Of a stretch of DNA of 64,000 bases, positions 1,400 through 12,387 are shown piece by piece. Each line of letters opens with the position of its first letter. The stretch's first letter is position 1. Under the pieces are notes generated by a model. That model had not been told where the DNA came from. It made no database searches and saw nothing but the letters and a program-made list of their open reading frames with translations. This stretch comes from Candidatus Kerfeldbacteria bacterium. GTDB taxonomy: Bacteria; Patescibacteriota; Patescibacteriia; UBA9570; XYC2-FULL-38-9. A program made the translations under genes and the position numbers. The stretch is from contig JBDRKW010000020.1 of NCBI GenBank assembly GCA_043813585.1, forward strand, positions 265,034 through 329,033. The letters run 5' to 3'.

Positions 1400-3304
1400 T
1401 TAATTATCCGAACCTGTCTGCGGCGAATTGGCTGGTTTCTTTTTTCGCCGGCGCCGTTTCCGCTTTGCAGTCGGCTTATCCGAAACCGGAAGCGCCCCGA
1501 GCGCATCGCCAAGCGAAGAAAAATCAGTTTTGATGCGCTGGCGCTGTCCCTGTTGCGGCCTTACATCCTGCTTTTCCTTCTTTGTATCCCTCTGTGCAGG
1601 GCGGGACCGCTCCGTCTTTTGAGCTTCCGGCCGCCGCTTCTGGCGGACGGGCTGCGTTTGCTGCGGTTCGTTCTGCTCTTTATCAGCTACAAAACTCAGC
1701 TCTTTTTTGCGCAGCGGCGCCAGGCCGTTCTGTTCTGCCGCTTTTGGCGGCTGAGGAACCTCTTGTTTCTTTGGCGGCATTGGAACATCCTCACGGGAAA
1801 TAGTTGGTTTAGCCGGCGCCGGCGTCGGCGTTGGAGGCGCATCCGCTCTCGGTTTTTGCCGCTGCGGAGGCTTCCCTCCCTTTTTTTCGTATTTCCTTTC
1901 TTCTTTTCGATACGATTTCTTTGCCTGTTGCGGCTGCTCCTCATCATCAGACCCGTCATCATCCATGTTATAGCCGGACCACCGCAGAATTGCCTCTTCT
2001 ACCTTTGCCTGCACATTTGCATATCGTTCCCGGGAAACCTGAATAACCGTCTCCTTATTCCCTGTCTCGCCGGATAGCGGAGGCAGCGTAGTTGCGGAAA
2101 ACGGCTCAGACGCCACACCGTCAATCATCAAACGCAAATAAATTTGATACGACGGCAGCGCCACAAGATCTTCCTGCGTAAACAACGGCAAATATTCCTT
2201 CTCAAGCTCTTCTGCGTCAACCGCACCAACACGGAAAGTAATCATCGTTCCAACATTGCCGAACACCGCAGCTTTAACCTCATCGCTTAACTGCTCAACA
2301 TATTGGTGGGCCATAATCAGATCCAGCCGGTATTTTCTTGCCTCCGATAAAATATTTGCAAAAGCCTCTGTTGAAAAATTCTGAAACTCATCAACATACA
2401 GGAAAAAATCACGGCGTTCCTTTTCCGGAATATCGACGCGGCTCATCGCTGCCAGCTGAATCTTCGTAATCATCATGGCACCGAGCAGCGCGGCATTTTC
2501 CTCGCCAATACGGCCCTTGGACAAATTCATCAAAAGAATCTTCCCGCTGTCCATAATCTCGCGCATATTGATCGTGCTCTTTGGCTGGCCGACAATATTT
2601 CGGATAAGCGAAGAGGACAAAAACTGCCCGACTTTATTCTGGATCGGAGCAATCGCTTCGTTGCGGAACTTTTCCGAATAGTTGTTATATTCGTCAATCC
2701 AGAACGATTTCACGACCGGGTCTGTAATGTTGCGCACCACCTTTTTCCGGTACTTCGCGTCAACAAGCATGCGCGTAACGCCAAGCAGCGTCGAACCCGG
2801 ATATTCAATAAGGGCGAGAATAGAGTTAATCAAAATGTATTCCAAGCGCGGGCCCCAGGAGTCTGCCCAAATCTTCTTAAACACGCCCACAAGGCCGTTT
2901 GAAACCAAATTCTTATATTCCAGCTCCACATTCTCAAGAATGTTAAAGGCAATCGGATTGGCGACATCGGCCGGATTAAAATAGACAACATCATTGATGC
3001 GATTGGACGGAATAAAATCAACAATCTTCTCCACCAAATCGCCGTGCGGATCAACGACTGCCAGCCCGTGTCCGTTGCGGATATCCTGGATAATCATGTT
3101 CTCAAGCATCGTCGACTTCCCCATGCCGGTCTTGCCGATCACGTACATATGGCGGCGGCGGTCATCCCCTTTAATGCCAAAACGCCTGTTCTCATTCCTA
3201 AAATTCGTGCCTGCAAAAAACGTTACCTGTTGTTCGTCAAAGGCGTACGGTTGCGGCTCTTGTTCCGGTTGTTCCGGCTGTGCTGTTGGCTCGTCGTTCA
3301 TCAT
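1400..3304 (-). CDS. Soluble VirD4/TraG/TraD-like type IV coupling protein homologue (FtsK-HerA superfamily P-loop ATPase) with a ~190-aa basic, Pro/Gln/Lys-rich disordered C-terminal tail
   Basis: Walker A is VIGKTGMGKST and it is followed by VVDPHGD. Walker B is FLYVDEFQNF. A TraG-D_C-like segment reads RKYRLDLIMAHQYVEQL...FGNVGTMITFRVG. There are no N-terminal TM helices. Its start overlaps the stop of the upstream gene in an ATGA. Confidence 0.6.
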   Translation of the reverse strand: MMNDEPTAQPEQPEQEPQPYAFDEQQVTFFAGTNFRNENRRFGIKGDDRRRHMYVIGKTGMGKSTMLENMIIQDIRNGHGLAVVDPHGDLVEKIVDFIPSNRINDVVYFNPADVANPIAFNILENVELEYKNLVSNGLVGVFKKIWADSWGPRLEYILINSILALIEYPGSTLLGVTRMLVDAKYRKKVVRNITDPVVKSFWIDEYNNYSEKFRNEAIAPIQNKVGQFLSSSLIRNIVGQPKSTINMREIMDSGKILLMNLSKGRIGEENAALLGAMMITKIQLAAMSRVDIPEKERRDFFLYVDEFQNFSTEAFANILSEARKYRLDLIMAHQYVEQLSDEVKAAVFGNVGTMITFRVGAVDAEELEKEYLPLFTQEDLVALPSYQIYLRLMIDGVASEPFSATTLPPLSGETGNKETVIQVSRERYANVQAKVEEAILRWSGYNMDDDGSDDEEQPQQAKKSYRKEERKYEKKGGKPPQRQKPRADAPPTPTPAPAKPTISREDVPMPPKKQEVPQPPKAAEQNGLAPLRKKELSFVADKEQNEPQQTQPVRQKRRPEAQKTERSRPAQRDTKKEKQDVRPQQGQRQRIKTDFSSLGDALGALPVSDKPTAKRKRRRRKKKPANSPQTGSDN

Positions 3305-4992
3305 ACAGGAAGGTTAGGTGGAGGCGTGCCCCCGCTAGTAGGTGTTGAATCCGGCCGGTCAGCCTGATTGCCGGTTTGAGGTGATGGCGGCGCCAGTGGA
3401 ACTGCTTCCTCTCCGCGTATCGGCACTTCCCGTACGGGAGTCGGCTGTTCAACCGCCTTAACGCCCGGCGGCAACCCCGGCATGGAATGCAGCTGTTCAG
3501 GAACAGGCTGCTCCACCGGCGCAAAACGTTCGGTTACCGGCGGCTCTCCTGGCTCCGGCGGCGGCGGCGGGGCGGGAATGGTTTCTGAAACCGGTTCAGG
3601 TTCCGGCGTTACCACCTGCTCAGTTTGTGCATCAGGTAAAGTTTGTACGGCAATACGATCATGGCCTTTGCGCAGACGCTCAAACGGAGATGCGCCAACA
3701 GGAAGATGGGCAGGCGGCTCCGCTTTTTTGGAAACCGTCTTGGAAACCAACGGCGCTTTGACCTCCTGAACCGGAAAATGAAATAAAGTTGCGATTTCCA
3801 CATGCGACATCACATAAGACGACTCGCCGATCCAGTTCGAGCGATACTTATATCCTGCCATTAATTTATTTTTGCGCGCTTCGGAACGCCGCTTCGGAAA
3901 AAAATATTCCGGCCCGCTCGTAACGGTGCGGCCGCCGGCTGTAAACGAATTTAAATCAAGGGAATTAAACTGCTTGAACGCCCCAAAAATCGAACCGACC
4001 ACGCGGTAGGAATTCATTATCTCTTTTGGAGCAATGTACACAAAACGAAATTTCGTCTGGAAATGAAGCCGCGCCGCTTTCTTCTGCACCTCTTCAACAA
4101 TGATCTTTTCCCCTGTCGTCAAACCCATGAAGCTCCCATCCATTTCATCCTTATCCTGCCGTTGTTCCTTGTATCCTCCTTCCGGAGCCGTGAACACGGA
4201 ATCATGAACCGTTTCCAGCGTCTTTTGCGTCGCGTTCGTCAGGTAATCAGCAATATCCTTCTTATATTCCTGCGGTTTACCGATTAAGTCATTAACCTCT
4301 CGTTTGCTTTTCTCCCGCCATTCATGCCCTTCAGGTGTTATAACAAACTGAAGCCAGACCTGTTCTCCCGGCTGCAGCCTGCTGAGCAGTTCCAGTACAG
4401 CTGCCATTGGGTCCGCAAACAGGCCGGATAATGAATGCTCAAAAAATTCATACGTCTTAATCGGGTAGGCATCGCTGTTTGCCAGAGTAAATTCAGTCCC
4501 CCATAAATCATACTCCTTGTTCGGATATTCCTGCGGCACATTCTGCACATAATCCTCTACCTCGATAATCTCCGCATCCGCATACTGCGCATACACCGCG
4601 CCTTTCACCAGTTCCGCATTGTAATCATCGCACCGGATAAAATACTGGATATACCCGTCAATACTGACGATTTCCAGGGAAAATTTATCCTGAATGACGC
4701 CCAGCCAGTACGCTTCACGCTTCGTAGGGCTAAAATGCACGCCATGCAGCGCTGAAATAATATTCTCGACCGAACGCATGGTGGTTTCATGCATTTTCGG
4801 AACATCGATGGCCAACAAAACGAATTTCTTCTTCATATCGTACTTGTTCTGAAGCCAGTTCACCCAGCCGGTCCACATCATCCAGATTAACAGAGGAAAG
4901 AAAACAATAAGACCGCCCCACTGAAAGAAGAGTTGAATAATGGCTAACGGGCTAGACCCGAGACCGGCAATGTCAGTCCACTCAAATGGCAT
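3301..4992 (-). CDS. Hypothetical membrane protein: an N-terminal hydrophobic hairpin, a large soluble domain and a Pro-rich C-terminal tail. It is translationally coupled to the coupling-ATPase gene downstream.
   Basis: N-terminus is LAIIQLFFQWGGLIVFFPLLIWMMWTGWVNWL. I recognise no family for the rest. The C-terminal tail contains PAPPPPPEPGEPP. There is a 4-bp ATGA overlap with 1400..3304. Confidence 0.5.
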   Translation of the reverse strand: MPFEWTDIAGLGSSPLAIIQLFFQWGGLIVFFPLLIWMMWTGWVNWLQNKYDMKKKFVLLAIDVPKMHETTMRSVENIISALHGVHFSPTKREAYWLGVIQDKFSLEIVSIDGYIQYFIRCDDYNAELVKGAVYAQYADAEIIEVEDYVQNVPQEYPNKEYDLWGTEFTLANSDAYPIKTYEFFEHSLSGLFADPMAAVLELLSRLQPGEQVWLQFVITPEGHEWREKSKREVNDLIGKPQEYKKDIADYLTNATQKTLETVHDSVFTAPEGGYKEQRQDKDEMDGSFMGLTTGEKIIVEEVQKKAARLHFQTKFRFVYIAPKEIMNSYRVVGSIFGAFKQFNSLDLNSFTAGGRTVTSGPEYFFPKRRSEARKNKLMAGYKYRSNWIGESSYVMSHVEIATLFHFPVQEVKAPLVSKTVSKKAEPPAHLPVGASPFERLRKGHDRIAVQTLPDAQTEQVVTPEPEPVSETIPAPPPPPEPGEPPVTERFAPVEQPVPEQLHSMPGLPPGVKAVEQPTPVREVPIRGEEAVPLAPPSPQTGNQADRPDSTPTSGGTPPPNLPV

Positions 4993-5015: not shown

Positions 5016-6185
5016 TTAGCTGGAGGCCTCATCGGCAGCTTCTGTCTGTATTTTCTCCTCCGGTTGATGACTCTCTCCAGAATCCTCTGCCAATGCATAC
5101 CTCCCATCCTTGGTCTTATTAAATAGTGACTTGTCAGTCAATGCGAGATGGATAGTATTTTTTTTCACGATGCGCTGCTTCAGAACCATATCAACAATAT
5201 CCGAACGCTTCATCGGCTGGCCTGCCTGCTTAAGGATATCCTGAATCACGCTGGCGACAACGCCCTCTTTAAATCCCCATTCTTTCAACGCGTAAATGCC
5301 CCGTCCGACTAAAACGTATTCGTCGTTGAGGATGAGCTCGTTATGAACAGTCGGAGGATACGCAGCTTTCTTAAAGATTTTCGTAATGCGTTTGGCAATC
5401 TCTTCAAAATGCATCGGCTGGCCTTCTTTTTGCAGAACAAGAAATACGCGGTCATTCATCCGCTTCGGCTGAATTAATCCCCAGTCAGCCAGTCCATATT
5501 CGTCAAACGGGTTTCGCGCGAGCCTGGTTGAAACCTCCAGGTACGATGCAACTGAATCTTCAGTCAGCTTCTGGTCATGGTTCTTGTAGAACTCTGTTTC
5601 CTGCAATTTTTCATATAGTTCATCAAACGTTGCCGGTTTTCCAATTTGTTCAACCAGCTTCTCCAGTTCCTGGATGCCCTGATCAATAAAATCCATTGAA
5701 GTCAGGCGCAGTTTCCAGCCCGGATGGTATTTCTTGGTTTTTGGAATCTCCTCGAGCTTTTCATCTAAGAGCTGCGTAATGATAAACGAGACAGCCAGCT
5801 TATACTGCTCACTGTCCTTGTGAACGCCTAAAAGCGTCTCATACAGCATCTGCTCAGTTATCAGCCCGCCATGTTTATCGACCAGAGTTGAAACAAGATG
5901 TTCGACAGGCCGCATGATCTCCGAAAAGGCGCTGCCAGATTTTATTTTTGCGATTGATTGATTCTCGATTTGGCGAATGCGCTCGCGCGTGACGTTGTAA
6001 AACGATCCGATTGTTTCCAAAGTTTCCTTGCCTTGGTCAGTCAGACCATACCTCCGCCGTACAACATCCGCTTCTTTGGAGCCCAAAGACTTCAGGAGCG
6101 TATTCACAACCTCGAGAGGATTAAAATCCTGCTTTTCTTGGTCCTCCTTGCTTGAAAGGACCTTATCTAGAATAGAATCGGTCAT
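5016..6185 (-). CDS. Sigma-70 region 4 domain protein with two C-terminal HARE-HTH-like (RNAP delta-subunit-like) modules
   Basis: The region 4.2 HTH is ADVVRRRYGLTDQGKETLETIGSFYNVTRERIRQIENQSIAKIK. HARE-HTH-like motifs are EYGLADWGLIQP and VLVGRGIYALKEWGF. A consensus promoter lies directly upstream. Confidence 0.55.
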   Translation of the reverse strand: MTDSILDKVLSSKEDQEKQDFNPLEVVNTLLKSLGSKEADVVRRRYGLTDQGKETLETIGSFYNVTRERIRQIENQSIAKIKSGSAFSEIMRPVEHLVSTLVDKHGGLITEQMLYETLLGVHKDSEQYKLAVSFIITQLLDEKLEEIPKTKKYHPGWKLRLTSMDFIDQGIQELEKLVEQIGKPATFDELYEKLQETEFYKNHDQKLTEDSVASYLEVSTRLARNPFDEYGLADWGLIQPKRMNDRVFLVLQKEGQPMHFEEIAKRITKIFKKAAYPPTVHNELILNDEYVLVGRGIYALKEWGFKEGVVASVIQDILKQAGQPMKRSDIVDMVLKQRIVKKNTIHLALTDKSLFNKTKDGRYALAEDSGESHQPEEKIQTEAADEASS

Positions 6186-6324: not shown

Positions 6325-6759
6325 ATGCCTGATATGGACATACCAACGCCTCCGGCGGCTAATGCGCCGGAAAATACCTTCGAAACAACCGGTACAGTCA
6401 TGAGTACTTCGAATGCAAAGATGATTGACTTTGATGAAACAATAGCAATGCTGCAAACCGGCATTGAATATCTCCAGGAAACACGCTCAGACTTTGAAAC
6501 AACAGGCCCTCAAAAATGGATTTCTGACACTGCCGATCACATGAACGCAGCACTGGACAATATCCAGGATCTTGAAACCAACCACATGGATGACCTGGCC
6601 AAGTGGAAAAACGAGTCGGGTGAAATATGCGATGTGCTTGTTCGCATGCAGGATGAAGCAGGATTTGATGAAGCCGTACGCTTATTCACTAGAGCGCTCG
6701 ATTCGTTCGACGACTATTTCAATAAACACATCAATCTGCTGAAAAGCAAAAGGAAATAG
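6325..6759 (+). CDS. Hypothetical acidic protein of 144 aa; the only plus-strand gene in the window
   Basis: A clean ORF transcribed divergently from the sigma-4 gene and convergent with secF. I recognise no motif. Confidence 0.5.
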   Translation: MPDMDIPTPPAANAPENTFETTGTVMSTSNAKMIDFDETIAMLQTGIEYLQETRSDFETTGPQKWISDTADHMNAALDNIQDLETNHMDDLAKWKNESGEICDVLVRMQDEAGFDEAVRLFTRALDSFDDYFNKHINLLKSKRK

Positions 6760-6768
6760 TATTTTTTA

Positions 6769-7662
6769 TTACCTCTTGAGCAACCGCTGCCCTACCAAAA
6801 GCAACGGACTTGCTATAAAAATTGATGAATAGGTTCCGGTAAGAATACCAAGTATCAGCGCCAGCACAAACCACTGGATGGATGCGCCGCCGAACAGATA
6901 CAGCGCAAGCAGGACAAGCAATGTGGAAAAGGATGTGTTTATCGAACGCACCAGCGTCGTATTGATGCTCTCGTTTATAATTTCCTTGAACGATTTCTTT
7001 GCGCGGTCTTTAAGCCCCTCTCTGATGCGGTCATACACGACAATCGTGTCATGAACCGAAAAACCGAGAATCGTCAGCAATGCAGTGACAAACAAAGTAT
7101 CGACCTGTACGTCCATAAAGTGCCCCAGTAGAATAAATGCCCCGACTACGAGGAGAATATCATGCGCAAGTGCCACAATGGCTCCGAGCCCAAACACCCA
7201 TGATGGAACCGGTCCGTTCGAGACCTTGCGAAAGGCGTACGAGATGTACCCGATAATCGCAAATAGGACGAGGAGAAGCGCTATGACAGCCTTTCTCTTG
7301 AGCTCTTCACCAAGCGTCGGGCCGATGCTGGTATAGTTCTCCTCTACGACATCCTGGTCTTTATACGCATCCAAAATCTGCTGGCGGGTCTTATTTTCAA
7401 TATGCTGCATTTTGAGGATCAGATTTGATTCACCTGCAGTCTGAATGCGCATATCACTCACACCAAGGTCAGTCACGGTGGTCGTAATATTTTCTACAGA
7501 CGGTCGCGATTCTATGTCGGGAAAACGCAACTCCATCGAGGTTCCGCCGGTAAAATCAATACCGAGGTTCAATCCCCATACAAACCACAATACTACGGTT
7601 GCCGCAATGCCAATGATAGAGAGGGTACTCCAATATTTCGTTGTATGGATAATCCTGTACAT
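6769..7662 (-). CDS. secF: Protein translocase subunit SecF
   Basis: Has a six-TM SecD/SecF fold. Starts MYRIIHTTKYWSTLSIIGIA and contains FTGGTSMELRF. It lies immediately downstream of secD. Confidence 0.9.
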   Translation of the reverse strand: MYRIIHTTKYWSTLSIIGIAATVVLWFVWGLNLGIDFTGGTSMELRFPDIESRPSVENITTTVTDLGVSDMRIQTAGESNLILKMQHIENKTRQQILDAYKDQDVVEENYTSIGPTLGEELKRKAVIALLLVLFAIIGYISYAFRKVSNGPVPSWVFGLGAIVALAHDILLVVGAFILLGHFMDVQVDTLFVTALLTILGFSVHDTIVVYDRIREGLKDRAKKSFKEIINESINTTLVRSINTSFSTLLVLLALYLFGGASIQWFVLALILGILTGTYSSIFIASPLLLVGQRLLKR

Positions 7663-7664
7663 AT

Positions 7665-9347
7665 CTATTCTTTCTTTCGCTTATTGATTCCGTACCACCA
7701 CGTATTTTGCAGCCGGATAACGCCGAGTAAGTTCCGCGTAATGGTAATGGCTGAAAACATTGAAATGAGGATTCCGATAGCAAGCGTTACTGCAAAACCG
7801 CGAATCAGCGATGAACCGAACCAATACAGGATCAGGCAGGTAATGAGCGAAGAAACGTTCGAATCGCGGATTGATGTCCATGCGCGCTTAAATCCGTCGT
7901 CAATACTCTGGCCGATCGGCTTGCCGCGCCGAAGCTCTTCCTTGAAACGCTCAAATATTAGGACGTTTGCGTCCACAGCCATGCCGATCGATAAAATGAA
8001 TCCCGCAATTCCGGCAAGGGTCAGCGTAACCGGGAACAGCTTGAACACCGCAAGTACAACCAAGGAATAGATCGTCAGTGCCAGAACAGACATTACTCCC
8101 GGAAGCCGATAGTATACGATCATGAAAATCGAAAGCAGGACCAGCCCGAATATGCCAGCAAACAGGCTGCGTTCAATGGATGCCTGGCCGAGTGTCGGAC
8201 CGACGTTCTGCTGGCTGATCAGTTCGACAGGTACCGGCAATGCACCTGCATTCAGCCGCTGCGCCAGCAGTTTGGATTCTTCGAGCGTAAAATTGCCCGA
8301 GATAACCGCTTCGCCGCCGGTAATCTCCTGCTGCACCACCGGAGCACTGATAACCACGCCATCAAGATAAATCGCGACCGTTTTGCCGACATTATCTTTT
8401 GTGATCTGCGCAAACAGCTCTCGGCCCTCTTTATTGAACTGCAATGAAACGGTCGGGAGCCCGGTATTCGGGTCAAACGTCACATCCGCGTTTTCCAGCT
8501 GCTCGCCGGTCAGCGGCGTCGATTCATAGGTCGGCTCTAATAAAAGAGGTTGCTCAGATTCCTTCACAAACAAAATATGGTGAGCGCGCGCGATTTTCCC
8601 TACTTCTGTTCCTTCCTCATTATTTGCAGGCTCCTCGCGCAATTCATCCACCCTTATTATATGGTATCCAAACAGCGTTTCAACAAGCTCCGGATAAACA
8701 ACTCCAACTTCGGCTTTAGTAAATACAACGTCATCAAACTCATCCACCATCATACCCTGGCTAAATTCGCCCAAATCGCCGCCCTGTTCAGCCGATCCTG
8801 GGTCGTCAGAATATTCTGTTGCCAATGCGGCAAAATCAGCATCCGCCTTTTGCGCCTTTTTCAAAACAGTGTTCGCCTGTTTTTTGATCTTCTTATTCTC
8901 TTCCCGAACCTTTTCCCTCTCTTCATCCGTAAGTTCCGGCGGCTCGCCCTCGGTCTTAAACTCCAAAAGCGGCGTCTCACCGATTCGGTTAATCGCCTCT
9001 GTAATATCCGTTACGCCCGGCAATTCAACAAGAACGCGCCATTCGTCGCCTGAACGGACCGTCTGGATGTTCGGCTCGCCCACGCCAAACGCGTTAATGC
9101 GCCGTTCAATCACATCACGAACGCCTTCAAGCGCTGATGTGCGTTCTGTCTCGTCAATCTGCGAAACATCCGCTTTATACAAAAGTGAAGTCCCGCCCTG
9201 CAAATCCAGGCCAAGATGAACTTTAATTTCACGAAATGTATCGCCAAATGAGATATCCGGCCCTTTTGGATAATCAACAACACCAGCCAAAACAGTCAAT
9301 ACAAGTATGCCCAGGAGCGATAATCTGATTTTCGTACGCGCTTTCAT
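7665..9347 (-). CDS. secD: Protein translocase subunit SecD with a parvulin (PpiC)-type PPIase-like domain inserted in periplasmic domain P1
   Basis: SecD TM core includes [11 protein letters not shown] and [24 protein letters not shown]. Residues ~126-240 read [64 protein letters not shown], which matches the PrsA/SurA parvulin signature. Confidence 0.9.
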
Positions 9348-9384: not shown

Positions 9385-10830
9385 TCAATAGTGGGTCCAC
9401 ACCAAAGTGCCAATATCAGCCCAATTATAAAGGAATTTTGCGTCATTATAGCGCATGTTGACGCAACCATGGCTCATTGGGTGGCCGAAATTATTATGCC
9501 AATAAGCAGAATGCAGATAGAACCGCATTCCATTGCCGGCTGTGGCAAAGGCAAGGTTATACGGCGTATTCGGCAGGTAGTAACCCGGGCCTGAATACAA
9601 ATGGTTTAAGATCTTGTTAAATACGGAAAATTCGCCGACAGGAGTTGGCGTGCCCGGCAAACCTGAAGAAATAAGGAAAACATTGCGCAGGTACCCGTCC
9701 TCCCACACATATTCGATCTGTTCAGTAAGGTTCACTTCAATGTAACGCGCCGGCCGCTCCGGATCCGCTTTGGGATGCTGGAGGCCCGGACTGATAATAA
9801 TCTCCGGTGTTTGATCTTTGTCTATAGATGCAACGGAAATATTCATTCCGCCGCGGAAACCTTCTTCAAATAAATATTGCGAATCCACGTCAAGCGGGGT
9901 CCCGTCGCCCCTGAAATATTTTACCTCTGCCTGCTGGTCCCCTGCCGGAACGACCGCGATCTCCTCTGTACCGTCGCCATCAGCGTCGATTGCTGCCATC
10001 TCAACGCCGCTCCGGAATTCGCGCGACCATGCCTGGAATTCCGCCAGCACGGGGTACTCGCGATTTGCGTCAATGCGGTAACCCTTAATCCAGGTTTGCC
10101 CCCCGTTATCAAAACCAACATACAGGTCGCTATGCTCGCCGCCGCCTGTGTTTATGGCCGCCGCAATCAAGCCATAGGTATCTGTTTCTGAAAACGGCGA
10201 AATATCCGGTGCCTGCATAACCCCGTTGCTGTCCAGAATGCGCACCAGAGGAAACAATCCGCCAACGGTTGCTGCAATAATTTCCTCTTCCGGGCCGTTT
10301 AATACATTTCCAACTGCAATGGCAGTGCCAGCCGGAAACTCCGGAAACGCTTCAAACGTGCCGGCTGTATCCGTATCTTCCTGTAGCATCCCATCCAGGA
10401 TCCATACTTTTGATGAAGCGCCGTCCGGAACTGAAACGATTATCTCGTCTTCACCGTCACCGTCCACGTCGCCGCATTCGACATCAAGATAGGTCCAGTC
10501 GTTTGTTCCGTGGAAAATTGCCGTTTGCGATATGAGTGAATGGTCGCCCCTGAACACTTTAATAATGCCCAGCGCATCCGGTCCGCCGGCCTGCGCAACA
10601 ACGATTTCGTTAATGCCATCGCCGCCGACATCACCGACCGCAACATCAACGCCGCCCTGATAGGACTCGTCGAATGCCAGCCATGAATCCTGAACCTCGC
10701 GCGTTTCAAAATCAATCACCTGGATCTCCGGCGCGCGGTTCGGCACGGCTGCGGCAGAAAATGGAACACACAGGAAGATAACCGGCACCCACCAGAACAC
10801 GGTTCGCAGATATGGTCGTTGTTCGGACAT
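9385..10830 (-). CDS. Secreted protein: FG-GAP/VCBS beta-propeller repeats fused to a C-terminal L,D-transpeptidase (YkuD) catalytic domain
   Basis: Has an N-terminal signal peptide. The repeat motifs include VGDVGGDGINEIVV, GDVDGDGEDEII and IDADGDGTEEIAV. The C-terminus FYLHSAYWHNNFGHPMSHGCVNM carries the His/Cys YkuD motif. Confidence 0.75.
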   Translation of the reverse strand: MSEQRPYLRTVFWWVPVIFLCVPFSAAAVPNRAPEIQVIDFETREVQDSWLAFDESYQGGVDVAVGDVGGDGINEIVVAQAGGPDALGIIKVFRGDHSLISQTAIFHGTNDWTYLDVECGDVDGDGEDEIIVSVPDGASSKVWILDGMLQEDTDTAGTFEAFPEFPAGTAIAVGNVLNGPEEEIIAATVGGLFPLVRILDSNGVMQAPDISPFSETDTYGLIAAAINTGGGEHSDLYVGFDNGGQTWIKGYRIDANREYPVLAEFQAWSREFRSGVEMAAIDADGDGTEEIAVVPAGDQQAEVKYFRGDGTPLDVDSQYLFEEGFRGGMNISVASIDKDQTPEIIISPGLQHPKADPERPARYIEVNLTEQIEYVWEDGYLRNVFLISSGLPGTPTPVGEFSVFNKILNHLYSGPGYYLPNTPYNLAFATAGNGMRFYLHSAYWHNNFGHPMSHGCVNMRYNDAKFLYNWADIGTLVWTHY

Positions 10831-10929: not shown

Positions 10930-12387
10930 TTATTCGTGGACAATGACCTTGTCGCCGACATCGGCCCAGTCATAGATCCATTGGGAGTTTTCCAGATTGA
11001 CGTTGATGCAGCCGTGGCTCATGACATGTCCGAAGTTGTTGTGCCAATAGGCATAGTGAATATAGTGGTGTTGGCGAAACCGCAAATTGTTCACCACGCC
11101 AGGCAGGTCATAATTGTCCGGGTGGCCCGGTCCGTACGTCCATTCATAATCATGCACCGGCAATTTAGCGAGCACCTCGGTTTCCCCGGTCGGCGTCGCG
11201 TACCGCGCAACTCCGGTAGACACATAAAATTCTTTTTCTTTCACACCGTTCCGGTAGGCCCGTAAAATCTGTTCGGACAAATCCACATCAATATATTTGA
11301 AAATGTCCGTCCTGCCTTCCACGATTTTCTTTTGCGGTATAGTGACTATTTCAATCTTTGCGTCTGCATCCACATTTCCCGCTGTAACCGATACGCCGCC
11401 CCGAAAATCTTCCTCATACGCAAGAAAGCCAGGATTATAAAGCTTTCCCTTCTTCCCCTTAAAGATACGAATGTGCGGTCCGCCGGACTGCCGAGGCGCA
11501 GTAATAATTTCATCAATACCGTCCATATCAACATCCGCACTCGCTAGGTTTACGCCGCCTCTGAAGTTAGCGTCATACGCCAGGAACTCGCTGATGATCG
11601 TATCATTCGCATCTGCCTTGTACACCTTGATGCGCGGCTCGCCAAACGAATGGATGGCCGTCACAACCTCTTCATCCTTCCCGCCATCAACATTCGCGGT
11701 CGCAACTGAAACGCCGCCCCGGTCTGTATCGGCAAACGGAAAAAAATCGATACCAATATAATTTCCATATTTATCAAAGACACGAACATGGGGTCCGCCG
11801 CCGGGCCCGGCGCCGGTGATAATATCTGCGCTCCCGCGTCCGTCAACATTCCCAACTGCAACATTTACGCCGCCGCGGAAATGTTCATCATATGCAAAGA
11901 ACCCCGGGGTAAATTTCTCTTTCCCTTTCATGTTAAACACGCGCACCTGCGGTCCGCCGCCGCGCCCTGCTCCAACAACAATCTCATCTTTACCATCGCC
12001 ATTCAGGTCGCCTGCAGCAACATTGACGCCCACGCGGACATTATCGCCAAATGCCAAAAATTCGGAGACTTTCGCACCGCCAGGCGTGAATACGGTGACG
12101 GTCGGGCTTGATCCCGGCCCGGCGCCGACGATAACTTCATCTTTTCCGTCGCCGTTGAAGTCTCCGGTTGCGACCGTCCCCCCATTTTCGTTTGCCTCAT
12201 CAAACGCCAGAAACGATTCCTGCTGGCTGGCGACAGTTCCTTTGTTTTGCATTTCAAAAACGCGGACTTCCGGCTGGCGGTAATCCGCGGCGTGCACTGG
12301 CTGTGCGGTAACTGCAACAAACGCAGCAAGTGCGCAGATGCCACCGCCAACAAACAGCACAGGTCTAAAATTACGATGCCTTATCAT
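10930..12387 (-). CDS. Secreted FG-GAP-repeat plus L,D-transpeptidase protein; tandem paralogue of 9385..10830
   Basis: Has a signal peptide and about six FG-GAP repeats (GDFNGDGKDEVIVGAGPG, GDLNGDGKDEIVVGAGRGGGP, and others). The C-terminus reads HYAYWHNNFGHVMSHGCINV. Confidence 0.75.
   Translation of the reverse strand: MIRHRNFRPVLFVGGGICALAAFVAVTAQPVHAADYRQPEVRVFEMQNKGTVASQQESFLAFDEANENGGTVATGDFNGDGKDEVIVGAGPGSSPTVTVFTPGGAKVSEFLAFGDNVRVGVNVAAGDLNGDGKDEIVVGAGRGGGPQVRVFNMKGKEKFTPGFFAYDEHFRGGVNVAVGNVDGRGSADIITGAGPGGGPHVRVFDKYGNYIGIDFFPFADTDRGGVSVATANVDGGKDEEVVTAIHSFGEPRIKVYKADANDTIISEFLAYDANFRGGVNLASADVDMDGIDEIITAPRQSGGPHIRIFKGKKGKLYNPGFLAYEEDFRGGVSVTAGNVDADAKIEIVTIPQKKIVEGRTDIFKYIDVDLSEQILRAYRNGVKEKEFYVSTGVARYATPTGETEVLAKLPVHDYEWTYGPGHPDNYDLPGVVNNLRFRQHHYIHYAYWHNNFGHVMSHGCINVNLENSQWIYDWADVGDKVIVHE

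What the first reader, a model, noticed from the sequence alone, without database searches (positions are those of the whole stretch)
8628..8972. secD carries an embedded parvulin-type PPIase-like domain in its periplasmic P1 domain
Residues ~126-240 of SecD read ...[81 protein letters not shown]. This aligns motif-for-motif with PrsA/SurA/PpiC parvulin domains: FxxLAxxxSxD, GGDLGxF, MVxxF and FGYHII. It would place a foldase or chaperone module on the trans side of the translocon motor. That role is normally played by separate proteins such as PrsA, PpiD or SurA. The first parvulin catalytic His (the HIL strand) appears to be replaced by PLLEF, so it may act as a chaperone rather than an isomerase.
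Basis: partly seen in the sequence, partly recalled or inferred. Interest (0 to 1): 0.6.

Follow-up and report, generated by a model that had tools for sequence, protein, structure and literature searches.

The report
SecD carrying a permuted parvulin domain
The SecD subunit of this candidate-phyla-radiation bacterium's protein-export motor has a prolyl-isomerase (parvulin) folding domain built into its outer face, in a rearranged strand order that keeps all the catalytic residues, so export and a folding helper appear to be joined in one protein.

Summary

A conserved 'ArAsHILf' strand (residues 250-261; H257 in 107/112 homologues) follows FGYHII as a β-hairpin. The domain is therefore circularly permuted, with β1 moved to its C-terminal end. 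Moving that strand back to the front extends the Pfam Rotamase match to profile positions 1-96 of 97.

All Pin1-equivalent catalytic and pocket residues are present: H257, D182, T224, H229, L192, M200 and F204.

All 120 listed database homologues have the same architecture. Related CPR lineages carry two parvulin units, and many others carry none. I found no paper or curated model describing the fusion.

The most likely function is a PrsA/PpiD-like foldase built into the SecDF motor. Catalytic activity is untested, and so is whether a free PrsA is absent from the genome. This is a new variant of known kinds.

The parts
7665..9347 (-). secD coding sequence (560 aa), including the embedded parvulin domain
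   Evidence: ORF list. TIGR01129 secD scores 403 bits against a cutoff of 244. The protein is 100% identical to MFH1426797.1, SecD of a Candidatus Kerfeldbacteria MAG.
9273..9341 (-). TM1 of SecD (residues 3-25)
   Evidence: The AF2 model has helix H3-25; coordinates checked.
8946..9266 (-). N-terminal part of the P1 base (residues 28-134), ending in the conserved strand PLLEFKT (128-134)
   Evidence: Pfam SecD_1st covers residues 75-132. The region aligns to T. thermophilus SecDF residues 30-121. AF2 predicts strand E128-134.
8631..8933 (-). Parvulin core in the order α1-α2-α3-β2-α4-β3-β4 (residues 139-239). It contains D182 (8802-8804), T224 (8676-8678) and H229 (8661-8663), plus pocket residues L192, M200 and F204.
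8601..8630 (-). Variable hairpin loop between β4 and β1' (residues 240-249)
   Evidence: Low pLDDT in the model. Loop length ranges from 5 to 64 residues and mean pairwise identity is 17% across homologues.
8565..8600 (-). Relocated β1 strand of the parvulin (β1', residues 250-261, [12 protein letters not shown]), carrying catalytic H257 (8577-8579)
   Evidence: H257, I258 and L259 are at least 90% conserved. AF2 predicts strand E250-261 with pLDDT 97, forming a hairpin with E227-239. Restoring the canonical order extends the Pfam Rotamase match to positions 1-96 of 97 and adds 4.5-7 bits. H229F occurs only together with H257Q.
8232..8564 (-). Linker plus P1 head subdomain (residues 262-372)
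   Evidence: Pfam SecDF_P1_head covers residues 262-372, E=5.7e-33. The region aligns to T. thermophilus SecDF from residue 134 onward.
7722..8228 (-). End of the P1 base plus TM2-TM6 (residues 374-542), with the invariant TM4 Asp D459 (7971-7973)
   Evidence: Pfam SecD_SecF_C. '[13 protein letters not shown]' aligns to T. thermophilus 'GAAVDGNVLSFER'. D459 is invariant. AF2 predicts helices between 385 and 543.
6769..7662 (-). secF (297 aa), starting 2 nt downstream of the secD stop codon; the partner subunit of the motor
   Evidence: TIGR00966 SecF scores 280 bits against a cutoff of 160; ORF list.

Best explanation
This is a functional SecD with a PrsA-like parvulin peptidyl-prolyl isomerase domain of about 123 residues (139-261) inserted between the last strand of the P1 base and the P1 head, on the extracytoplasmic side of the membrane.

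The domain is circularly permuted. The chain leaves the base strand PLLEF and enters the parvulin at helix α1. It runs through the core to β4 (FGYHII), turns back through a variable hairpin, and supplies the central His-bearing strand β1 ('AHHILF') last. It then continues into the P1 head. The domain's entry and exit points therefore lie where the β1-α1 loop sits in an ordinary parvulin, so the whole domain behaves as a loop insertion at the base-head junction.

Shown: the architecture, the fold, the strand order, and conservation of the catalytic tetrad (H257, D182, T224, H229) and of the proline pocket (L192, M200, F204).

Inferred:
- The domain is an active PPIase and holdase without phospho-specificity. 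The loop that gives Pin1 its phospho-specificity does not exist here.
- It acts on polypeptides as they leave SecYEG and are handled by the proton-driven SecDF P1 head. This would do in cis what lipoprotein PrsA (monoderms) or membrane-anchored PpiD and SurA (diderms) do in trans.
- It arose from a window on a tandem parvulin array, shifted by one strand.
For: - Pfam and NCBIfam: SecD and SecF hits are above their cutoffs, and Rotamase_3 matches with E=1.4e-24.
- Position of the insert: query residues 40-136 align to T. thermophilus SecDF 30-121, and 253-542 to 134-423.
- AF2 models: the full protein has pLDDT 88.3, with 95-98 over residues 140-240 and 97 over 251-260. The domain alone has pLDDT 94.9 and pTM 0.87, with a long hairpin at 227-243/246-261.
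- Restoring canonical order: Rotamase goes from 79.7 bits (profile 10-96) to 84.2 bits (1-96 of 97), and Rotamase_3 from 91.4 to 98.7 bits (profile 28-114 to 16-114). Adding the native PLLEF flank gives no extension.
- Conservation in 112 homologues: H257 107, H229 110, T/S224 112, D182 99, M200 88, F204 110. The two H229F sequences are both H257Q.
- Mapping to Pin1 H59, C113, L122, M130, F134, T152 and H157 (Pin1 sequence recalled from memory, its residue numbering self-consistent).
- Constraint: the parvulin core has 50% mean pairwise identity, against 17% for the hairpin loop and 28% for the linker.
- Recurrence: all 120 listed homologues, from independent assemblies, carry PF00639 and PF13616 inside SecD.
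- Origin: the insert profile aligns best to SurA as P1 core plus the β1 strand of P2. Tandem parvulin lipoproteins have the same spacing between β4 and the next β1.
- Functional precedent: PpiD contacts the periplasmic domain of SecD (PMC9643414). SurA binds the holotranslocon through SecDF (PMC9987972). The parvulin lipoprotein Mpn444 crosslinks to SecD (bioRxiv 10.1101/2024.09.05.611430).
Against: - No activity data exist. Conserved catalytic residues do not prove catalysis, and the PPIase activity of PrsA, SurA and PpiD parvulin domains is partly dispensable or absent in vivo (the importance of PpiD's parvulin domain is questioned in PMC9643414).
Placement of β1' between β2 and β4 is inferred from the DSSP strand pattern, the hairpin, the HMM test and residue covariation, not from a measured contact map.
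- Foldseek matched few parvulins (best E=2e-7, TMq 0.67).
- Whether the genome lacks a free PrsA, PpiD or SurA is unknown.
- In sister lineages with two units, one unit has lost its His residues. Some clade members replaced the domain with a low-complexity linker. The module is therefore not indispensable to SecD.
Confidence: 0.7

Rival explanations
1. The embedded parvulin is a non-catalytic substrate-binding (holdase or docking) module. It would be like the inactive parvulin domains of PpiD or SurA P1, adding a second polypeptide-binding surface to SecD without isomerising prolyl bonds.
For: The parvulin domains of PpiD and SurA P1 are regarded as catalytically weak or dispensable (established knowledge; PMC9643414 notes that the importance of PpiD's parvulin domain is questioned). 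In SecDs with two units, one unit has lost the β4 His in 10 of 11 sequences yet is retained. D182 is replaced by Gly in 13 of 112 homologues.
Against: The full catalytic tetrad and proline pocket are conserved at 88-100% in 112 homologues. The closest sequence relatives are active-type PrsA and PpiC: 48% identity to the PrsA 6vj6 parvulin, and the top NCBIfam hits are PrsA-type and PpiC models. When one His is lost the other is lost too, which suggests the pair is selected as a unit.
Confidence: 0.2
2. The insert is mainly a mechanical or regulatory element at the P1 base-head junction. It would tune or gate the swinging of the P1 head, or mediate contacts with SecYEG, YidC or the cell wall. 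Its parvulin ancestry would then be incidental.
For: It lies in series in one of the two base-head connections, which is the region whose movement underlies the F-form to I-form transitions of SecDF (PMC5974789). The same site tolerates one unit, two units or a low-complexity linker in related SecDs.
Against: A purely mechanical role does not explain strong conservation of active-site residues, as opposed to only core residues. Because the permuted domain's entry and exit points are adjacent, it behaves as a side-branch rather than as a lever in the chain.
Confidence: 0.07
3. The fusion is an artefact: a mis-assembled or chimeric ORF, or a frameshift joining secD to a neighbouring prsA-like gene.
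For: The source is a metagenome-assembled genome.
Against: The parvulin lies inside SecD, between two SecD subdomains and in frame. All 120 listed homologues (55-79% identity, from NCBI, JGI, ENA and Logan assemblies) show the same architecture. So do 17 of the 80 GTDB species-representative loci examined.
Confidence: 0.01

Closest known systems
SecDF of Thermus thermophilus and Deinococcus radiodurans (PDB 3AQP, 5YHF, 5XAN): the proton-driven translocation motor
   Same: Same overall fold and subdomains: TM1, P1 base, P1 head and TM2-6, with SecF as partner. phmmer gives E=4e-85 and Foldseek gives E=6e-23. The TM4 Asp is conserved (D459).
   Different: The known structures have about 12 residues between the base strand and the head. 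This protein has a parvulin domain of about 120 residues there. SecD and SecF are separate polypeptides here.
PrsA foldase of Bacillus and other monoderms (PDB 6VJ6, 4WO7, 1ZK6)
   Different: PrsA is a separate lipoprotein dimer. Its parvulin, in canonical β1-first order, is inserted in an N/C chaperone domain. Here there is no such chaperone domain, the tether is SecD itself, and the strand order is permuted.
PpiD-YfgM and SurA of E. coli: parvulin-containing chaperones that dock on the Sec holotranslocon
   Different: PpiD and SurA are separate proteins with large chaperone domains, and the association is non-covalent. PpiD's parvulin is considered inactive, whereas here the catalytic residues are intact.
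Mpn444 and Mpn436 of Mycoplasma pneumoniae
   Same: They are surface parvulin PPIases of a wall-less organism with a reduced genome. They crosslink to SecD and are proposed to fold proteins emerging from the translocon (bioRxiv 10.1101/2024.09.05.611430).
   Different: They are separate large lipoproteins with extra domains, not an insertion in SecD.
Tandem parvulin arrays (SurA P1-P2; lipoproteins such as P0121 and P0125)
   Same: The unit 'core-β4-short linker-β1' of the SecD insert aligns in register with the core of one repeat plus the β1 of the next.
   Different: In the arrays each β1 precedes its own core. In single-unit SecD the trailing β1 has no following core and, according to AF2, folds back onto the preceding one.

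Membership tests
SecD (protein translocase subunit, RND superfamily) | Sequence match to the curated SecD model above its cutoff | tested here: met
   TIGR01129 scores 403.2 bits against a cutoff of 244.4, covering profile positions 1-397 of 397.
SecD (protein translocase subunit, RND superfamily) | Topology: TM1, a large periplasmic P1 region (base plus head), then five further TM helices | tested here: met
   Pfam SecD_1st, SecDF_P1_head and SecD_SecF_C are all present. AF2 predicts helices 3-25, 385-413, 415-437, 444-473, 478-510 and 513-543. Foldseek top hits are SecDF structures.
SecD (protein translocase subunit, RND superfamily) | Conserved proton-pathway Asp in TM4, and an adjacent SecF partner | tested here: met
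   D459 is invariant in 112 sequences and aligns with the T. thermophilus 'AVDGN' Asp. secF lies immediately downstream and scores 280 bits against TIGR00966.
SecD (protein translocase subunit, RND superfamily) | PMF-dependent stimulation of protein export | not testable with these tools
   Requires genetics or biochemistry.
Parvulin (PpiC-type) PPIase domain | Match to the Pfam Rotamase models above the gathering score | tested here: met
   PF13616 scores 87.3 bits against 22.5, and PF00639 scores 75.7 bits against 21.7.
Parvulin (PpiC-type) PPIase domain | Parvulin fold: a four-stranded antiparallel sheet with four helices | tested here: met
Parvulin (PpiC-type) PPIase domain | Catalytic tetrad (Pin1 H59, C113 or Asp, T152/S154, H157) and proline pocket (L122, M130, F134) | tested here: met
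   The equivalents are H257, D182, T224, H229, L192, M200 and F204. They are conserved in 88-100% of 112 homologues, with M200 at 79%.
Parvulin (PpiC-type) PPIase domain | Canonical order of elements, with β1 first (β1-α1...β4) | tested here: not met
   β1 follows β4. The native sequence matches only from profile position 10 (PF00639) or 28 (PF13616). The rearranged sequence matches from position 1 or 16. This makes it a circular permutant of the family fold, not a canonical member.
Parvulin (PpiC-type) PPIase domain | Measured cis/trans isomerase activity | not testable with these tools
   Needs an enzyme assay.
PrsA / SurA / PpiD chaperone-foldases | Parvulin domain embedded in a trigger-factor-like or SurA-N-type chaperone domain | tested here: not met
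   SecD has no SurA_N, PrsA N/C or trigger-factor Pfam hit. The parvulin is flanked by the SecD P1 base and head.
PrsA / SurA / PpiD chaperone-foldases | Own membrane anchor (lipobox in PrsA, N-terminal TM in PpiD) or a soluble periplasmic protein (SurA) | tested here: not met
   The domain is internal to a polytopic membrane protein. It may work like these proteins but is not a member of their families.

The most novel reading that the evidence does not exclude
A large clade of Patescibacteria has hard-wired a catalytically active prolyl isomerase into the proton-driven SecDF motor. The insert would be a one-strand-shifted excerpt of a tandem parvulin array, placed at the P1 base-head junction, and the first natural circularly permuted parvulin I could find any record of. 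In these reduced genomes it would replace free PrsA/PpiD-type foldases, so that capture, pulling and prolyl isomerisation of each exported chain happen on one moving machine.
Probability: 0.35. Interest if true: 0.75.

Novelty: new variant of a known kind. Interest (0 to 1): 0.6.

Why it matters
How exported proteins are handed from the Sec channel to extracytoplasmic folding factors is still unresolved. The evidence for PpiD-SecD and SurA-SecDF contacts comes from crosslinks, low-resolution EM and AlphaFold models.

- A natural covalent fusion of a PrsA-like parvulin to SecD, conserved across many uncultivated lineages, is independent evolutionary evidence that the SecDF P1 region and parvulin foldases work on the same substrate at the same place.
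- The fusion offers a compact, single-polypeptide system for studying that coupling by structure determination, PPIase assays and chimeras in B. subtilis or E. coli.
- The permuted strand order, with its apparent derivation from tandem parvulin repeats, is a clean example of circular permutation through duplication in a well-studied enzyme fold.
- It adds to the picture of how CPR bacteria, with genomes of about 1 Mb, consolidate envelope functions.
- On the practical side, current annotation names these proteins simply 'SecD'. No NCBIfam SecD model covers the insert, so the foldase function goes unrecorded in genome-based metabolic and proteostasis inventories.

Tried and rejected
- PLLEF as a degenerate β1. 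Rejected: PLLEF is the conserved SecD base strand, present in T. thermophilus and in SecDs without the insert. The Pfam profile does not extend over it. The domain-only model folds completely without it.
- Sizing the family with the representatives search (residues 120-275). This largely failed. Scores are dominated by multi-parvulin lipoproteins, and only 16 of the top 150 representatives are SecD-type, so the count is only a lower bound.
- Whether a curated SecDF model (NF009585, equal-length match 59-541 to 162-644) already contains a parvulin. The insert alone does not hit it, so it does not.
- Taxonomy of the best tandem-array relatives as a clue to origin. The names are sparse (MAGs labelled Deltaproteobacteria or Planctomycetota) and uninformative.
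- Literature. Five searches found no description of a SecD-parvulin fusion or of a permuted parvulin: SecD+parvulin+fusion; SecDF/PPIase/Patescibacteria; SecD/rotamase/domain architecture; CPR+SecD+peptidyl-prolyl; parvulin with 'circular permutation' or 'permuted'. The library is open-access only, so absence is not proof.
- Which β1 strand completes which core in the two-unit SecDs. Histidine conservation favours mid-β1 with core B, whereas linker lengths are compatible with either pairing.

Full report
**What is at the coordinates**

Window 7665-9347 (minus strand) is a 560-aa ORF, followed 2 nt later by a 297-aa ORF at 6769-7662. NCBIfam identifies them as SecD (TIGR01129, 403 bits, cutoff 244) and SecF (TIGR00966, 280 bits, cutoff 160). 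The SecD protein is 100% identical to MFH1426797.1, annotated 'protein translocase subunit SecD' in a Candidatus Kerfeldbacteria MAG (Patescibacteria/CPR).

Pfam divides the protein as follows:

| Pfam model | Residues | E-value |
|---|---|---|
| SecD_1st | 75-132 | 1.3e-15 |
| Rotamase_3 | 145-235 | 1.4e-24 |
| Rotamase (PF00639) | 146-234 | 5.8e-21 |
| SecDF_P1_head | 262-372 | 5.7e-33 |
| SecD_SecF_C | 374-542 | 1.8e-18 |

**Where the insert sits**

Against T. thermophilus SecDF (3AQP), residues 40-136 align to 30-121 and residues 253-542 align to 134-423. About 116 residues here replace about 12 residues in the reference. The insert lies directly after the conserved last strand of the P1 base (PLLEF, matching 'AVLEF' in Thermus) and before the P1 head.

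The rest of SecD looks functional. The TM4 Asp (D459) is invariant, AF2 predicts six TM helices, and SecDF structures are the top Foldseek hits.

**Is it a parvulin fold?**

AF2 models residues 140-240 with pLDDT 95-98 in the full-length model. A domain-only model of residues 134-266 reaches pLDDT 94.9 and pTM 0.87.

**The correction: the His strand is not lost, it has moved**

An alignment of 112 homologues instead shows a conserved 'A-r-A-s-H-I-L-f' motif at residues 253-260, after FGYHII. H257, I258 and L259 are each conserved in at least 90% of sequences. Five lines of evidence say this strand is the parvulin β1:

1. AF2 predicts strands 227-239 and 250-261 as a hairpin joined by a low-confidence loop of variable length (5-64 residues across homologues), with pLDDT 97 on the second strand.
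2. I moved residues 248-263 in front of helix α1. The Pfam Rotamase match then extended from profile positions 10-96 to 1-96 of 97 (79.7 to 84.2 bits). The Rotamase_3 match extended from 28-114 to 16-114 (91.4 to 98.7 bits). Keeping the native PLLEF flank gave no extension.
3. In the rearranged alignment the Pin1 catalytic and pocket residues map as follows:

| Pin1 | H59 | C113 | L122 | M130 | F134 | T152 | H157 |
|---|---|---|---|---|---|---|---|
| SecD | H257 | D182 | L192 | M200 | F204 | T224 | H229 |

   Conservation among the 112 homologues is H257 107, H229 110, T/S224 112 and D182 99.
4. The only two sequences with H229F both have H257Q. This is as expected if the two His residues are neighbours in one active site, although it may reflect a single evolutionary event.
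5. Free parvulins of 91-92 residues align to the model over 79-80 residues, roughly the domain minus one strand. A sequence-order aligner would give this result against a permuted domain.

The DSSP pattern fits the canonical sheet order β2-β1-β4-β3. β4 pairs with β3 and with the hairpin strand, so the six-residue β2 (191-196) must pair with β1'. That last step is inference, because I could not read the model coordinates.

PLLEF itself is SecD's own base strand and is present in SecDs without the insert.

**Consequence of the permutation**

The chain enters the domain at α1 and leaves after β1. This is the point where an ordinary parvulin has its β1-α1 loop. The domain is therefore a neat loop insertion whose two ends are adjacent. 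The Pin1-type phosphate-binding loop cannot exist here, which, together with Asp at the C113 position, points to a PrsA/Par10-type enzyme without phospho-specificity.

The parvulin core is under constraint. Its mean pairwise identity is 50%, against 17% for the hairpin loop and 28% for the downstream linker. The P1 base, P1 head and TM regions are at 63-73%.

**Distribution**

All 120 listed homologues (55-79% identity, from NCBI, JGI, ENA and Logan; the few that are named are Kerfeldbacteria, 'Patescibacteria group' or 'bacterium') carry PF00639 and PF13616 inside SecD.

I examined 80 GTDB species-representative loci:

| Parvulin units in SecD | Loci | Examples |
|---|---|---|
| One | 6 | Kerfeld-, Buchanan-, Moranbacteria and others |
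| Two | 11 | Parcubacteria, Uhr-, Magasanik-, Peregrinibacteria |
| None | 63 | Saccharibacteria, Nomurabacteria, Gracilibacteria, Chloroflexota, Cyanobacteria and others |

A rough NJ tree of the head and TM regions puts nearly all insert-bearing SecDs in one clade, with one-unit and two-unit forms interleaved. Three members of that clade have lost the insert, and two of these carry S/T/E-rich linkers at the same site. Sixteen of the top 150 50%-identity representatives are SecD-type, which is a lower bound on family size.

**Likely origin (inferred)**

The insert profile matches E. coli SurA best as 'P1 core plus β1 of P2'. The best non-SecD relatives are lipoprotein-like arrays of two or three canonical parvulins. 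In these arrays the spacing from the β4 His to the next β1 His (15 residues) equals the spacing in short-loop SecD inserts (16 residues). The insert thus looks like a window on a tandem array shifted by one strand, which is the classical duplication route to circular permutation.

In two-unit SecDs the middle β1 together with core B forms a canonical-order unit (Rotamase_3 profile positions 1-115 of 116). Both keep their His residues in 11 of 11 sequences. Core A keeps its His in only 1 of 11, and the terminal β1' in only 4 of 11. How the strands pair in three dimensions in those proteins is unresolved.

**Mechanism**

Established knowledge:
- SecDF uses the proton gradient to swing its P1 head, which binds emerging precursors (PMC5974789).
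- SurA binds the holotranslocon through SecDF (PMC9987972).
- The parvulin lipoprotein Mpn444 crosslinks to SecD in M. pneumoniae (bioRxiv 10.1101/2024.09.05.611430).

My best explanation (confidence about 0.7) is that this SecD carries its own PrsA-like foldase and holdase at the base-head junction, acting on chains as they leave SecYEG.

Rivals:
- A non-catalytic binding module (about 0.2).
- A mechanical or regulatory hinge element (about 0.07).
- An assembly artefact (about 0.01, effectively excluded by recurrence across independent assemblies).

**Novelty**

No curated NCBIfam SecD model covers the insert, and records name the protein plain 'SecD'. Open-access literature searches found no description of the fusion or of a permuted parvulin. 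The Pfam domain combination is visible in precomputed annotations, so the co-occurrence itself is implicitly on record.

I rate this a new variant of known kinds (SecD plus parvulin) and of moderate-to-good interest (0.6). It is not a new mechanism class. It is a natural fusion that bears directly on an open question, translocon-to-chaperone hand-over, and it provides a tidy new permutation of a classic fold.

**Limits**

- There are no activity data.
- There is no access to the model coordinates.
- Only 64 kb of the genome is available, and it holds no other parvulin. The question of whether free PrsA or PpiD is absent therefore remains open.

Noticed in passing
L007-L015, L030, L045 (e.g. 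L009:5959-8019, L010:5800-7869): Related CPR lineages (MAGs labelled Parcubacteria, Uhr-, Magasanik- and Peregrinibacteria) have SecD or SecDF with two parvulin units at the same site. Core A has lost the β4 His in 10 of 11 sequences. The middle β1 and core B keep their His residues in 11 of 11. The terminal β1' keeps its His in 4 of 11. Unit B matches Pfam Rotamase_3 from profile position 1. Whether the strands pair as a tandem-permuted or a swapped (nested) arrangement is unresolved.
   Followed up: partly
L007, L008, L009, L011-L015 (loop after the middle β1, e.g. 'ICWQGLTTCAQ' in L009): A conserved Cys-x7-Cys pair lies in the β1-α1 loop of the second parvulin unit in the Parcubacteria-type two-unit SecDs. 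It is absent from the Uhrbacteria and Peregrinibacteria examples. It could be an extracytoplasmic disulfide.
   Followed up: no
L028:662-2344 and the L023 SecD ORF: Two SecDs that fall inside the insert-bearing clade in a rough tree carry a low-complexity linker of 55-70 residues, rich in Ser, Thr and Glu, in place of the parvulin between PLLEFK and the P1 head. The base-head junction appears to be a hotspot for gain and loss of inserts.
   Followed up: partly
P0121, P0122, P0125, P0127, P0129, P0136: The best non-SecD relatives of the insert are lipoprotein-like proteins made of two or three tandem canonical parvulin units with long 'HILIxYxGAxxxxxxxTRTKEEA' β1-α1 loops. The few named ones come from MAGs labelled Deltaproteobacteria or Planctomycetota. 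Their repeat spacing matches the β4-to-β1' spacing of the SecD insert.
   Followed up: partly
window 9385-10830 (-) and 10930-12387 (-): Two paralogous genes lie between secD and secA. Each encodes a signal or TM segment, FG-GAP repeats and a C-terminal YkuD L,D-transpeptidase domain (E about 1e-21), so cell-wall cross-linking enzymes sit next to the export genes.
   Followed up: partly
window 5016-6185 (-), 6325-6759 (+), 3301-4992 (-), 1400-3304 (-): Downstream of secF there are four further ORFs: a 389-aa protein with sigma-70 region 4 plus a HARE-HTH domain; a 144-aa ORF on the opposite strand with no Pfam hit; a 563-aa ORF with no Pfam hit; and a TrwB/VirD4/HerA-like ATPase.
   Followed up: no
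window 1-64000: Nearly every long, plausible ORF is on the minus strand, and GC skew is negative in every 2-kb bin. This indicates strong strand bias across the whole window.
   Followed up: no
window 8895-8897 (N151) within helix α1 (residues 141-166): The first helix of the insert is unusually long (26 residues) and contains an invariant Asn (N151), with nearly invariant A158 and L162. Nothing in canonical parvulin function explains this. It may pack against SecD or against the relocated strand.
   Followed up: no
L004, L008, L011, L028, L029, L044 (record titles): Several GTDB records whose SecD clusters with CPR sequences are titled Lysobacteraceae, Binatia or Gammaproteobacteria, including a 1.0-Mb single contig. 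These are probably mislabelled MAGs rather than cases of horizontal transfer.
   Followed up: no
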